Shown piece by piece: positions 48,001 to 51,000 of a stretch of 64,000 nucleotides of DNA. The stretch lies in assembly GCF_054482595.1 (NCBI RefSeq), contig NZ_CM137008.1; one strand, 5' to 3'. Made by a program: the position numbers. Numbering within the stretch: position 1 is the stretch's first letter; the number at the start of each line of letters is the position of its first letter.

Positions 48001-51000
48001 GCTGGTCAGAGGCATTGCTGCCATCAAGGCGAACACGCATATTGATGGTGCCACCCTGACCGGTGAGGTTACTGGTGGTCAGTTTATGGAACGTTACCGG
48101 GGCGTCGCCTTTTGCAACAGCACGGCTCAGGACGGCATCCTGTGTCGTCTGATTATCAAAGCGAATCTCCCCTGCGTTAACAATATCGCCGGTACTGACC
48201 ACATCACCATTCAGTACCATGCTGGCGCCTTTACTGAGCTGTGTTCTGCCACTCAGACTTCCCCCGGCAGCCAGCGTCAGTGTTCCACGATGTCCGACAG
48301 TGGTGTTGCCAGCCTGTCCCCCGGCATTAACCGTAAAGCTGCCGCCATTTTCCAGCAGCAGGCCGCTGGCCTGACCGGATATGCCATCAATACTGAACTT
48401 ACCGCTGGCATTGGTCCCCTCAACAGTGGCACCACTGTCTGCAATCAGGGCACCACCGGATGTCATGGTGACACCTGTCGCCTTACCACCGGCAGACACT
48501 GCCAGGGTACCGCCGTCATCCACCCGTGTTTTCTGCGCTGAATGACCCTCCAGTACATCCAGACGACCGCCGGACTCCAGAACAACACCGTCAGCCTTAC
48601 CGTTTTCCACCGCGAAATTGCCCAGACGGTTGCTGCCGGTGACGGTTGCCGCCGTACTGGTGACCAGTGCGCCTCCCTGCTTCAGGGTGACATTCGTGGC
48701 TGTACCACCGGCGTTCACCTGCAGTTTGCCTTTCTGGTTAACGGTGGTGAAATCCGCCAGACCACCTTCCTTGATAATCTGCCAGCCGTCACTGTTCACA
48801 ACAGTGTCAGACGTTGTACCTCCGTTGTGCACATACTGGTACCCCCCATTCAGCGTGGTATCCAGTGCGTGACCATGTACCGTCTGGTCGCCGCCGGCAT
48901 AAACCACCGTGGTGTTTGCCACTCCGGTGGCTACCACAATCTGACGACCATTTTTATTGATGGTGGTACGTACGGCATCTCCGCGAACAAACTGTCCGGT
49001 ATCAGCATTTTCCGCATCCGGTCCTCCTTCTGCGCCGGTATTCACAACCGTGTCGGTTGCCATTGCGCCGGATTTGACGGCCTGCCAGCCCTTCTCATTA
49101 ATGACGGTACCCGTTGCAATCCCGCCTTCATGTACCCACTGCTCACCGCCGTTCAGAGTGGTGTTCACTGCCTGCCCCTGAAGGCTCTGTCCTCCTCCGG
49201 CACTGATAACCGTGTCTGAAACGCTTCCTCCGGCATTCACTCTCTGAAGACCACCACCGGTGACAGTAGTGTTGTTGGCGATACCGCCATTTTGTATCCA
49301 TTGTCCGCCGGTATTGGCCTCGTTATCCGGCCCATACTCCAGCCCGGTACTGATGGTCATTCCGTTGGCCGTACCGAGGACAATCTGGTTGTCATGATTT
49401 GTCAGTGTTCCGTCGTTCACGGTTTCTCCCGCCTGTACAACCGTGTCAGCAGCCAGTGCCGGGACTGATGTGACAGCAGCAAGAGACAGTGCAACCGCCA
49501 CACCGGCGCGTTTTCCCCGTGAGCGGGCCAGTTCGGAGGCCACCACCAGGGTGCCCGTAATGTGATTCCATACCAGCCTGTAGCTGGTGTTCAGATGTCG
49601 TTTCATCAGCTTTTCCTTACAGAGGGTGAATAAAAAAGCCGGTACCCACAAATGTGGATACCGGCAGGTACAAAACAGCATGGTCAGATAAAGTGGTTTT
49701 TCCCGGGCATAAATGCTTCCCTTCTCTCATCCGCCAGAGAAGTATCAGTCCGTTGTGTGCAATTCCGTTCTGCATGATGAAGAGATTCAGCTGCCTTTTC
49801 GCAGACCATTAACCACTATAAACGATCGATAGTAACGATCGATACCTGTTTTATCGATCGTTTTATTCTATTAACGACAAGGCGGTCACGCAAGAGAAAC
49901 AGGAGGAGTATGAGGGGTTTGTGTCATGTTTTCAGTTGGTTAACGTAATGTTATCAGGCATTTCCCTGGCAGACTGTTCAGAAGAAAATCCAGTTCCATA
50001 CAGCGCGGGCAACAGAGACCACCGTGTCACGGACGGCACGCAGAACCGTGCGTGCAACAGAGGCAATACAGACGCTCTCCGCTGTGTCAAATATCCGGTC
50101 CACCGCACCGGTAAACTGTTCACGGGCCTGAGACCGGACAGATTCCGTGCGCAGCTCGTCCTGCAGGCGGGTCATCAGGGGACTGGCGGCATGGTCGGGA
50201 AGCGCTGTCATGAGCGCACTGACCAGCGTATCCAGTTCCCAGCCGGTGCGGGCCGATACGGCCACAACCGGATGTACGGGCCGGAACAGACGGAATACCG
50301 CCTCCGTTTTTTCGCGAATATTCTGTGCCTGTGCGGGAGAAGGCTGAATGCCGGCCATATCCCATTCATGGCAGGGCTCCGTTTTGTCGGCCTGCGTCAC
50401 CACAAACAGCACCTGCTGATGTCCCCGGTGCAGGATGTGTCGCCAGAAATACTCATCCACAGACAGGGCACGGTCATCGGCTTTAATCAGCCACAGTACC
50501 AGGTCAAGTTCAGGCAGAATGTCACGGTACAGGGCTTCATACTCTGCATCCCTGTCCCGGCTCTCGCCCACCCCGGGCAGGTCAGTGATAATCATACTGT
50601 GACCGTGGCCACTCAGACGGAAGCGCCGCACTTCCCGGGTGCCGGCGTGAACATCACTGACCGGGGTGACCTCCCCCTGAAACAGTGCATTACAGAGTGA
50701 GGATTTACCGGCCCCGCTTTTCCCCATAATGCCAATCACGGGTTCGTGACTGGTGAGTTTGCGCAGATGTTCCAGGATGTGACGGGAAAGTGAGTAAGGC
50801 AGGGAGGAGAGCGGTTTTTCAATTGCCTCAATGGCATCAGACGGATTCATACATGTATTCCCGGTGAAAAAAGACAAAACCCCCGCACACCGGAAAGGTG
50901 GCGGGGGACTCACGGAGATAATATATGTCTGAAATTATTTGGAATGCAGGTATATGTGGCTGATACAGGTCTGAATCTAATCTGACAGTCCGCTCTGTGC

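What the first reader, a model, noticed from the sequence alone, without database searches (positions are those of the whole stretch)
49607..49977. Ag43 phase-variation switch: three GATC sites upstream of the autotransporter gene
Three GATC motifs (49824, 49837, 49856) are clustered within 36 bp in the upstream region. This matches the arrangement where Dam methylation competes with OxyR binding to give heritable ON/OFF expression. The island therefore carries an epigenetic switch controlling a self-aggregating adhesin.
Basis: partly seen in the sequence, partly recalled or inferred. Interest (0 to 1): 0.45.

Follow-up and report, generated by a model that had tools for sequence, protein, structure and literature searches.

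The report
Known Ag43 Dam/OxyR phase-variation switch

Summary
GATC occurs at 49824, 49837 and 49856, in the 371-bp gap between a YeeP-like GTPase gene and an intact 948-aa Ag43/Cah autotransporter gene. Both genes are on the minus strand.

Clustering alone is not significant: about 0.9 such clusters are expected per window, and two others lie inside genes. Other evidence shows the sites are real:
- The 19/13-bp spacing equals that of the K-12 agn43 switch.
- 114 of 121 independent copies keep it.
- The block from -14 to +36 is almost the only promoter-proximal sequence shared by two otherwise diverged leader families.

The block holds a -10 hexamer and two 8/10 OxyR half-sites, 32 bp apart, that cover all three GATCs. 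Polymorphism falls on the unspecified motif positions. The sites lie at about +1 to +36 of a 253-nt leader (Rfam IS102/IsrC) that ends in an intrinsic terminator just before the start codon.

OxyR binding, methylation state and ON/OFF behaviour cannot be tested here, and the experiments I could read used K-12-type alleles, whereas this one is cah-type. The finding is already known and of low interest.

Two side observations are less ordinary: the switch sits in a conserved GATC-free zone, and the same module precedes non-Ag43 genes in Citrobacter.

The parts
46760..49606 (-). Ag43/Cah-family self-associating autotransporter gene (948 aa, intact), the gene controlled by the switch
   Evidence: NCBIfam NF033177 auto_Ag43, 1987 bits (cut-off 1200), 1-948/948. 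It is 89% identical to O157:H7 Cah and 72% to K-12 Flu. The identical locus in strain Santai is annotated as 'Ag43/Cah family autotransporter adhesin'.
49888..49893 (-). Putative -35 hexamer TTGCGT (3 of 6 match to TTGACA), 17-bp spacer to the -10
   Evidence: Read from the sequence. It is at the same position as K-12 TTGTCC in the ungapped alignment and is conserved in 76-78 of 78 unique alleles. It falls below the threshold of the generic promoter scan.
49865..49870 (-). -10 hexamer TAGAAT
   Evidence: Identical in the window, K-12, CFT073 agn43a, O157:H7 cah and Citrobacter braakii, and invariant in 5 of 6 columns across 78 alleles. It lies 5 nt upstream of the position matching the annotated 5' end of K-12 isrC.
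49857..49871 (-). OxyR half-site A, ATAGAATAAAACGAT (8/10 to ATAGnTnnnAnCTAT). It overlaps the -10 hexamer and GATC-I.
   Evidence: Half-site scan. Only 16 of 63,986 window positions reach 8/10, and 3 of them lie in this region. Diversity is 0.003 at specified positions and 0.035 at n positions. OxyR binding itself was not tested.
49856..49859 (.). GATC-I (about +1 to +4), a Dam target
   Evidence: It corresponds to K-12 GATC at L001 2318, which is the annotated isrC 5' end.
49837..49840 (.). GATC-II (about +20 to +23), a Dam target
   Evidence: It lies 19 bp from GATC-I, as in K-12.
49824..49827 (.). GATC-III (about +33 to +36), a Dam target
   Evidence: It lies 13 bp from GATC-II, as in K-12 and as in the GATC pairs inside the OxyR half-sites of Salmonella gtr (PMC2909390).
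49825..49839 (-). OxyR half-site C, ATCGTTACTATCGAT (8/10), flanked by GATC-II and GATC-III. Its centre is 32 bp from the centre of half-site A.
   Evidence: present at 8/10 in all five sequences compared. Diversity is 0.019 at specified positions and 0.243 at n positions.
49625..49861 (-). Transcribed leader, homologous at both ends to the IsrC/IS102 RNA of K-12. The central part belongs to a different (cah-type) leader family.
   Evidence: Rfam RF00124, 74.6 bits (gathering 46), model positions 1-206. The same model hits annotated isrC in K-12 at 252.6 bits and the cah leader at 77 bits. The predicted fold has z = -3.3.
49632..49665 (-). Intrinsic terminator of the leader: a 12-bp stem (8 G-C pairs), 4-nt loop and T6 run, ending 25 nt before the ATG
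   Evidence: Terminator scan. The terminator stem and T-run are identical in the window, K-12 and cah apart from one loop base (CFT073 agn43a differs at two more positions). PMC5389530 cites flu control by antitermination at IsrC.
49614..49618 (-). Shine-Dalgarno AAGGA, 7 nt before the ATG at 49606
   Evidence: Read from the sequence. Conserved in all four alleles aligned.
49978..50850 (-). YeeP-like GTPase gene, the upstream neighbour that bounds the regulatory region
   Evidence: NCBIfam GTPase domain hits. Annotated 'GTPase family protein' in the identical Santai locus and next to cah and agn43a.

Best explanation
This is the regulatory region of an Ag43/Cah-family adhesin gene and carries the family's Dam/OxyR epigenetic phase-variation switch, in its cah-type allelic form.

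Transcription runs on the minus strand from a sigma-70-type promoter (TTGCGT, 17 bp, TAGAAT) and starts at about 49859. A tetramer of reduced OxyR would bind two half-sites, 49871-49857 and 49839-49825, whose centres are 32 bp apart. This covers the -10 hexamer, the start site and all three GATCs. Bound OxyR blocks RNA polymerase (OFF) and shields the GATCs from Dam.

If Dam methylates the GATCs first, in the window after replication, OxyR cannot bind and the gene is transcribed (ON). Either state tends to re-establish itself after replication, which gives heritable but reversible ON/OFF lineages.

Transcripts must then pass an intrinsic terminator 25 nt before the ATG (the IsrC/IS102 leader), which is a second layer of control.

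Shown here: the sequence anatomy, its homology to K-12, its conservation, the half-site matches, and the leader and terminator. Inferred: OxyR binding, methylation states, the exact start site, and switching.
For: - Gene identity: NF033177, 1987 bits, full length.
- GATC spacing of 19/13 bp is identical to K-12 MG1655, CFT073 agn43a and O157:H7 cah.
- In the ungapped K-12/window comparison, identity is 12/12 at -12..-1 and 26/36 at +1..+36, against 6/17 in the promoter spacer and 14/44 at +37..+80. Between two diverged leader families, only this block and the terminator are conserved.
- Two 8/10 OxyR half-sites lie at -12..+3 and +21..+35 in all five sequences compared. Such sites occur at 0.025% of window positions.
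- Polymorphism among 78 unique alleles falls on the unspecified motif positions: diversity 0.24 against 0.02 in half-site C, and 0.035 against 0.003 in half-site A.
- 114 of 121 copies keep all three GATCs. GATC columns have diversity 0.011 against 0.057 for the intergenic region as a whole.
- Rfam IS102 hit above gathering score, plus a terminator.
- The region is present in 3445 of 5426 complete E. coli genomes.
- Literature on the mechanism: PMC2909390, PMC4872104, PMC3764049, PMC13337833.
- PMC2808357 already notes three similarly spaced GATCs in both allelic groups.
- SMRT data show the three GATCs upstream of each CFT073 agn43 gene unmethylated (PMC4752239).
- An oxyR deletion raises agn43 mRNA 121-fold in UPEC EC958 (PMC4807369).
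- In Salmonella gtr, GATC pairs 13 bp apart lie inside single OxyR half-sites. Their methylation abolishes OxyR binding, and the half-site spacing is described as fitting reduced OxyR (PMC2909390).
Against: - No experiment on this allele type was found in the papers I could read. K-12, CFT073 agn43a and probably EC958 (start site 228 nt upstream) all have the K-12-type leader.
- The 7-bp block at +9..+15 differs from K-12 and removes the CTAT element of the half-site that a 37-bp consensus scan picks in K-12. In that K-12 register the window half-site scores about 2/10 by my count, and the full consensus gives only 13/20 in shifted registers.
- The -35 matches only 3 of 6, and the generic promoter scan finds nothing.
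- dam and oxyR are not in the window.
- The whole -14..+60 stretch is conserved within the allele family, so GATC conservation is not specific to the tetranucleotides.
Confidence: 0.88

Rival explanations
1. The sequence is a relic or weakened version of the switch. Because the cah-type allele lacks the K-12 half-site between GATC-I and GATC-II, OxyR binds poorly or not at all, so Dam keeps the sites methylated and the gene is constitutively expressed or strongly ON-biased.
For: The block at +9..+15 differs from K-12. In the K-12 register the first half-site is nearly lost, and the full 37-bp consensus reaches only 13/20. No direct experiment on cah-type alleles was found.
Against: The two best half-sites (8/10 each) are shared by both allele families and by Citrobacter, and the diverged block lies between them. 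Three GATCs at fixed spacing are kept in 114 of 121 copies, and polymorphism respects the OxyR motif. That pattern would not be expected for a dead site. This allele type is the commoner one in E. coli, in 3445 against 1762 genomes.
Confidence: 0.07
2. The GATC-containing palindromes act mainly at the RNA level. They are transcribed as the first 36 nt of the leader and can form a 10-bp 5' hairpin that would stabilise the mRNA or influence read-through of the leader terminator. Methylation would be incidental.
For: The predicted minimum-energy fold pairs nucleotides 1-10 with 18-27 (GATC-I with GATC-II). The leader folds better than shuffles (z = -3.3), and the DNA strand of the block also folds (z = -3.8).
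Against: Hairpin potential follows automatically from the dyad symmetry of the OxyR half-sites. In K-12 the pairing is interrupted, yet K-12 is the allele with the demonstrated Dam/OxyR switch. No compensatory changes were looked for or seen.
Confidence: 0.03
3. Chance cluster of GATC in an AT-rich intergenic region with no regulatory role.
For: About 0.93 clusters of three GATC within 36 bp are expected per 64-kb window, and two other clusters exist in coding DNA.
Against: The exact 19/13 spacing is expected 0.006 times per window. It is conserved across allele families and in Citrobacter, and the sites are the only GATCs in a strongly GATC-depleted 9.7 kb.
Confidence: 0.01

Closest known systems
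agn43 (flu) Dam/OxyR phase-variation switch of E. coli K-12 MG1655
   Same: Same gene family downstream and same upstream neighbour (yeeP-like GTPase). Identical -10 hexamer, three GATCs at identical 19/13 spacing starting at the transcription start, the same two 8/10 OxyR half-sites, and an essentially identical leader terminator (one loop base differs) and Shine-Dalgarno region.
   Different: The promoter spacer, the 7 bp at +9..+15 and the whole central leader (+37 to the terminator) are unrelated in sequence. The leader is 253 nt against 222 nt. The passenger domain is 91 aa shorter, with 72% protein identity. The gene downstream is DUF905 rather than yeeR.
cah (calcium-binding antigen 43 homologue) regulatory region of E. 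coli O157:H7
   Same: Same leader family: 89.6% identity over the 371-bp intergenic region. The switch core is identical except for two bases between GATC-II and GATC-III. The protein is 89% identical and of the same length class, 948 against 949 aa.
   Different: Small sequence differences only, in a different chromosomal island context.
IsrC / IS102 small RNA (Rfam RF00124), the terminated agn43 leader
   Same: The match covers the whole model, with a conserved 5' end (GATC block) and a conserved terminator hairpin.
   Different: It scores 74.6 bits against 252.6 for K-12, because the central 150 nt are from a different sequence family.
Salmonella gtr (P22, LT2_I) and opvAB OxyR/Dam phase-variation switches
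   Same: OxyR half-sites that each contain GATCs 13 bp apart. Methylation blocks OxyR and OxyR blocks Dam. The half-site spacing fits reduced OxyR (PMC2909390). The pair GATC-II/III here has the same 13-bp geometry.
   Different: Those systems have four GATCs and alternative OxyR sites upstream of the promoter, one activating and one repressing. Here there is a single repressing site overlapping -10 to +36 with three GATCs.
pap-family Lrp/Dam switch
   Same: Heritable ON/OFF through competition between Dam and a DNA-binding protein at GATCs.
   Different: Two GATCs 102 bp apart, with Lrp and PapI rather than OxyR (PMC2909390). There is no such arrangement here.

Membership tests
Ag43 (agn43/flu/cah) Dam-OxyR phase-variation switch | Lies in the 5' regulatory region of an Ag43-family autotransporter gene | tested here: met
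   NF033177 equivalog, 1987 bits, full length. The sites are 218-253 nt upstream of the ATG on the coding strand.
Ag43 (agn43/flu/cah) Dam-OxyR phase-variation switch | Three GATC sites with the family's fixed spacing (19 and 13 bp), directly downstream of the -10 hexamer | tested here: met
   Spacing and -10 are identical to K-12, CFT073 agn43a and cah. 114 of 121 copies conform.
Ag43 (agn43/flu/cah) Dam-OxyR phase-variation switch | OxyR binding site overlapping the GATCs | tested here: inconclusive
   Two 8/10 half-sites 32 bp apart cover all three GATCs, and polymorphism respects the motif. The full 37-bp consensus gives only 13/20 and the K-12-register half-site is lost. Actual binding is not testable with these tools.
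Ag43 (agn43/flu/cah) Dam-OxyR phase-variation switch | GATCs unmethylated in OFF cells and methylated in ON cells; heritable bimodal expression; locked OFF in dam mutants and locked ON in oxyR mutants | not testable with these tools
   Needs methylation data and genetics. Published only for K-12-type alleles among the papers read.
Ag43 (agn43/flu/cah) Dam-OxyR phase-variation switch | Host encodes Dam and OxyR | not tested
   Neither gene was looked for in the window. The window is 99.8-100% identical to E. coli chromosomes, and E. coli carries both genes (established knowledge).
IsrC/IS102 leader RNA (RF00124) | Covariance-model score above the curated gathering threshold over the full model, on the strand of the downstream gene | tested here: met
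   74.6 bits against a gathering score of 46, model positions 1-206, minus strand. The same model hits annotated isrC in K-12.
IsrC/IS102 leader RNA (RF00124) | Ends in an intrinsic terminator just upstream of the agn43 start codon | tested here: met
   A 12-bp stem with 8 G-C pairs plus a T6 run at 49665-49632, 25 nt before the ATG. The hairpin and T-run are identical to K-12 apart from one loop base.

The most novel reading that the evidence does not exclude
The switch may not be only the 50-bp OxyR/GATC block. It sits in a GATC-free zone of several kilobases that appears to be maintained by selection. The Ag43 coding sequence has 0 GATC in nearly every allele, with synonymous codon choice avoiding GATC in all three frames, and the neighbouring island backbone genes are also GATC-free. 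This isolation may be part of the epigenetic mechanism, for example by keeping processive Dam, SeqA or MutH away so that the unmethylated OFF state can be inherited. In addition, the cah-type allele retains only the two half-sites spaced for reduced OxyR. The same promoter/GATC module drives unrelated small secreted proteins in Citrobacter, which suggests a portable phase-variation cassette.
Probability: 0.3. Interest if true: 0.45.

Novelty: already known. Interest (0 to 1): 0.12.

Why it matters
Ag43 phase variation is a textbook example of bacterial epigenetic inheritance, so finding it in another island adds nothing new. It is still useful for annotation: expression of this adhesin will be bimodal, and the three GATCs should appear unmethylated in part of the population in long-read data.

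The by-products are worth a short follow-up:
- The experimentally studied K-12-type leader is the minority form (1762 genomes against 3445 for this form).
- The two forms share only the block from -14 to +36 and the terminator, which delimits the functional core by natural variation.
- The switch sits in a conserved GATC desert whose link to switching stability could be tested.

Tried and rejected
- The generic sigma-70 scan found no promoter, because the -35 matches only 3 of 6. The promoter was placed by homology instead.
- Pairwise and multi-allele MAFFT alignments put the K-12 GATCs out of register by 13 bp. I replaced them with an ungapped comparison anchored on GATC-I and a four-way alignment.
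- The full 37-bp OxyR consensus scan was ambiguous: 13/20 in two shifted registers. Half-site scoring was more informative.
- A scan for the leader terminator found nothing in viral contigs or in the species-representative genomes. The metagenome scan worked.
- The primary agn43 papers (Wallecha 2002, 2003 and 2014; Kaminska 2010) are not held, and the cap on papers was reached before I could read a source for the OxyR contact model. The statement that reduced OxyR uses more widely spaced half-sites therefore rests on PMC2909390 and on my own knowledge of Toledano et al. 1994.
- I looked for experiments on cah-type alleles and found none. EC958 and CFT073 agn43a turned out to be K-12-type.
- The idea that the Citrobacter cargo proteins are IrmA homologues was rejected. 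They have no NCBIfam or Pfam family, and their E. coli homologues lack the GATC module.
- The other GATC clusters in the window (9719-9764 and 14178-14202) lie in coding DNA and were treated as chance comparators.
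Full report
**Observation**

GATC occurs at 49824, 49837 and 49856 and nowhere else between 46561 and 51322. These are a GTPase gene ending at 49978 and a 948-codon ORF whose annotated-type start is the ATG at 49606.

Clustering alone is weak evidence:
- First-order Markov simulations of the window give 0.93 clusters of three GATC within 36 bp, and 61% of simulations have at least one.
- The window holds two other cluster loci (9719-9764 and 14178-14202), both inside ORFs.

Three things make this cluster non-random:
- The exact 13/19 spacing is found once in the window, against 0.006 expected.
- The local background has almost no GATC.
- The arrangement is conserved, as shown below.

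**What the gene is**

The downstream ORF matches the NCBIfam equivalog model for Ag43/Cah autotransporter adhesins over its whole length: 1987 bits against a cut-off of 1200, residues 1-948 of 948. It is 89% identical to Cah of O157:H7 and 72% identical to K-12 Flu, with a passenger domain 91 residues shorter.

The 371-bp region is 100% identical in several E. coli chromosomes, for example O157:H16 Santai, where the neighbours are annotated as a GTPase family protein and an Ag43/Cah family adhesin. It is present at 80% coverage or more in 3445 of 5426 complete E. coli genomes.

**Anatomy on the coding (minus) strand**

| Element | Coordinates | Note |
|---|---|---|
| -35 hexamer TTGCGT | 49893-49888 | 17-bp spacer to the -10 |
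| -10 hexamer TAGAAT | 49870-49865 | |
| GATC-I | 49859-49856 | |
| GATC-II | 49840-49837 | |
| GATC-III | 49827-49824 | |
| Terminator hairpin | 49665-49638 | 12-bp stem |
| T6 run | 49637-49632 | |
| Shine-Dalgarno AAGGA | 49618-49614 | |
| ATG | 49606 | |

In K-12 the annotated 5' end of the small RNA gene isrC is the G of GATC-I. By homology, transcription here starts at about 49859, and the three GATCs occupy about +1 to +36 of a 253-nt leader.

Rfam family IS102 (RF00124) matches 49861-49625 over its full model at 74.6 bits (gathering score 46). The same model covers annotated isrC in K-12 at 252.6 bits and the cah leader at 77 bits. So the sites are upstream of the coding sequence but downstream of the promoter, and a terminator lies between them and the start codon.

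**Comparison with characterised alleles**

There are two leader families. The window and O157:H7 cah form one (89.6% identity, switch core identical except for two bases). K-12 flu and CFT073 agn43a form the other. The K-12-type central leader is found in 1762 of 5426 genomes, so the type in the window is about twice as common.

An ungapped comparison anchored on GATC-I gives:

| Segment | Identity, window vs K-12 |
|---|---|
| -12..-1 | 12/12 |
| +1..+36 | 26/36 (7 of the 10 mismatches are the contiguous block +9..+15) |
| Promoter spacer (-29..-13) | 6/17 |
| +37..+80 | 14/44 |

The families become similar again only at the terminator. Natural divergence therefore delimits the constrained core as about -14 to +36 plus the terminator.

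**OxyR site**

A scan with the full 37-bp OxyR consensus recovers a 14/20 site covering the three GATCs in K-12, but only 13/20 in two shifted registers in the window. The +9..+15 block that differs removes the CTAT element of the K-12-register half-site.

Scoring single 15-bp half-sites (ATAGnTnnnAnCTAT) is clearer. Two 8/10 half-sites are present in the window, K-12, CFT073 agn43a, cah and Citrobacter braakii alike:
- ATAGAATAAAACGAT at -12..+3, overlapping the -10 hexamer and GATC-I.
- ATCGTTnnTATCGAT at +21..+35, flanked by GATC-II and GATC-III.

Only 16 of 63,986 window positions reach 8/10, and three of them are here. The two centres are 32 bp apart.

In Salmonella gtr, each OxyR half-site likewise contains a GATC pair 13 bp apart (GATC starts at -110/-97 and -46/-33). 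Half-sites A and C there are 64 bp apart with B between them, and the authors state that the spacing fits the reduced form of OxyR. Methylation of the GATCs abolished OxyR binding in vitro (PMC2909390). The diverged +9..+15 block in the window falls between the two shared half-sites. That fits, by inference, a binding mode that skips one helical turn.

**Population evidence**

I anchored on the conserved terminator rather than on the GATCs and retrieved 120 metagenome loci. Together with K-12, Santai and the window these give 121 full-length copies and 91 unique alleles.
- 114 copies have all three GATCs at 19/13 spacing, and 7 have lost one.
- Among 78 unique cah-type alleles, nucleotide diversity is 0.011 in the 12 GATC columns against 0.057 for the intergenic region. 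Only 4.7% of random 12-column sets are as low.
- Within the half-sites, variation falls on the unspecified motif positions: 0.243 against 0.019 in half-site C, and 0.035 against 0.003 in half-site A.
- The spacer +4..+20 is also conserved within the family (0.024). The GATCs are therefore not uniquely conserved, and something besides the two half-sites constrains that stretch.

**Mechanism**

The best-supported reading is the published agn43 mechanism. OxyR bound to the unmethylated site represses transcription and protects the GATCs from Dam. Methylated GATCs prevent OxyR binding and allow transcription. Replication reopens the competition, and switching occurs at about 1e-3 per cell per generation (PMC3764049, PMC4872104, PMC2909390, PMC13337833).

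The leader terminator adds control by termination and antitermination (PMC5389530, citing Wallecha et al. 2014).

Evidence from strains other than K-12:
- SMRT data show the three GATCs upstream of both CFT073 agn43 genes unmethylated (PMC4752239).
- An oxyR mutation raises agn43 mRNA 121-fold in EC958 (PMC4807369).
- However, CFT073 agn43a has the K-12-type leader, and the EC958 start site, 228 nt upstream, suggests the same.

For the cah-type allele in the window, OxyR binding, differential methylation and bimodal expression are therefore inferred, not shown. dam and oxyR are outside the window.

**Known or new**

The finding is already known. The corrections are that the sites overlap and follow the promoter rather than precede it, and that the leader terminator (IsrC) is part of the regulatory region.

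**Side observation 1: a GATC desert**

Between 41590 and 51321 (9.7 kb) there are 4 GATC against 35.8 expected from trinucleotide frequencies, an observed/expected ratio of 0.11. Other palindromic tetramers have ratios of 0.6-1.2. Three of the four GATCs are the switch.

- The Ag43 coding sequence has none, against 7.3 expected.
- The same holds for K-12 flu (0 in 3120 bp), CFT073 agn43a (0 against 8.4 expected) and cah (0 against 7.6 expected).
- 87 of 90 metagenome copies also have none.

Codon choice in the window's Ag43 gene avoids GATC in all three frames:
- Asp before a C is GAC 5 and GAT 0; elsewhere it is GAC 23 and GAT 25.
- Ile after a G is never ATC (0 of 9); elsewhere ATC is 10 of 18.
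- A codon ending in GA is never followed by TCN (0 of 32).

The backbone genes from DUF905 to DUF4942 are also GATC-free (0 against 19.8 expected), here and in CFT073. The yeeR-irmA insert in CFT073 has many GATCs, in contrast to the GATC-free modules beside it.

In metagenome copies the nearest GATC is a median of 1.7 kb upstream and 3.2 kb downstream of the switch. In the core-genome part of the window the median gap is 143 bp and the largest is 1283 bp.

I could not decide between three explanations: insulation of the switch from Dam, SeqA or MutH; restriction avoidance by a mobile module that carries an antirestriction gene; or history. A limited literature search found no paper on this.

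**Side observation 2: the module in Citrobacter**

A scan of species-representative genomes for the switch core found it in Citrobacter braakii, C. amalonaticus and, with different flanks, C. werkmanii.

In C. braakii it lies after a YeeP-like GTPase gene and before two small signal-peptide proteins rather than Ag43. These are followed by DUF932, antirestriction and RadC genes, which is the same island backbone with different cargo. The proteins are not IrmA and have no NCBIfam or Pfam family. Their E. coli homologues lack the GATC module.

**Verdict**

The novelty class is "already known" and interest is low. The most novel reading not excluded is that the conserved GATC-free surroundings are part of how the switch works.

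Noticed in passing
window 41590-51321 (also L001, L123, L124 and metagenome loci L003-L122): Conserved GATC desert around the switch: 4 GATC in 9.7 kb against 35.8 expected, and 3 of the 4 are the switch. Ag43-family coding sequences have 0 GATC in K-12, CFT073, cah and 87 of 90 metagenome copies, with synonymous codon choice avoiding GATC in all three frames. The island backbone genes DUF905 to DUF4942 are also GATC-free, while yeeR-irmA in CFT073 has many GATCs.
   Followed up: partly
L127 5109-5144 (Citrobacter braakii), L128 942-977 (C. amalonaticus), L125 7176-7211 (C. werkmanii): The agn43-type module (TAGAAT plus three GATC at 19/13 bp) occurs in Citrobacter in front of non-Ag43 genes. 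In C. braakii these are two small signal-peptide proteins (154 and 157 aa) with no known family, in the same island slot between a YeeP-like GTPase and DUF932. In C. werkmanii the gene is a 187-aa membrane protein, and the flanks and GATC surroundings differ.
   Followed up: partly
metagenome loci L003-L122 (switch region): 7 of 121 copies have lost one of the three GATCs. In the cah-type alleles the loss is always by substitution of the G on the coding strand. The lost site is GATC-II in 5 copies, GATC-I in 1 and GATC-III in 1. These are natural two-site variants whose switching behaviour is unknown.
   Followed up: partly
window 49607-49977 compared with L001 2213-2539: There are two unrelated leader families for Ag43 genes. 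The cah/window type (253-nt leader) is in 3445 of 5426 complete E. coli genomes, and the experimentally studied K-12/CFT073a type (222 nt) is in 1762. They share only about -14..+36 and the terminator.
   Followed up: yes
window 9719-9764 and 14178-14202: Two other dense GATC clusters: four sites in 46 bp and three in 25 bp. The first lies in a small minus-strand ORF that looks by eye like an acyl carrier protein (DLGLESI motif). I treated both as chance clusters in coding DNA and did not verify the protein.
   Followed up: partly
window about 40840-40890: Left boundary of the island. Matches to the same island at other chromosomal positions in other E. coli strains (for example next to cadC in strain Santai) begin here, just after the ORF ending at 40739. 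The window contains no tRNA gene, and the island runs past the right end of the window.
   Followed up: partly
window 21485-21706 (minus): C0719 small RNA (Rfam RF00117, 299 bits), in the core-genome part of the window.
   Followed up: no
window 46707-46772 (minus): G+C-rich hairpin with a T run straddling the Ag43 stop codon (46760) and reaching into the gap before the DUF905 gene, picked up as a sub-threshold MicL match (20.9 bits against a gathering score of 56). It is most likely just the Ag43 transcription terminator.
   Followed up: no
window 49681: An in-frame ATG 75 nt upstream of the real start extends the mechanical ORF to 973 aa, through the leader terminator. This could mislead gene callers. 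The family model and RefSeq annotation start at 49606.
   Followed up: yes
L126 (contig of a 'Collinsella sp.' MAG, 1560 bp): This contig carries a cah-type E. coli switch and leader that breaks off inside the terminator stem. It is probably an E. coli contaminant or a chimeric contig binned into a Collinsella genome.
   Followed up: no
window 52001-54000: Low-G+C stretch (0.37 against 0.51 for the window) inside the island. By identity to the Santai annotation it covers a 372-aa (1119-bp) hypothetical protein (378-aa mechanical ORF 52529-53665) and a GNAT acetyltransferase.
   Followed up: no
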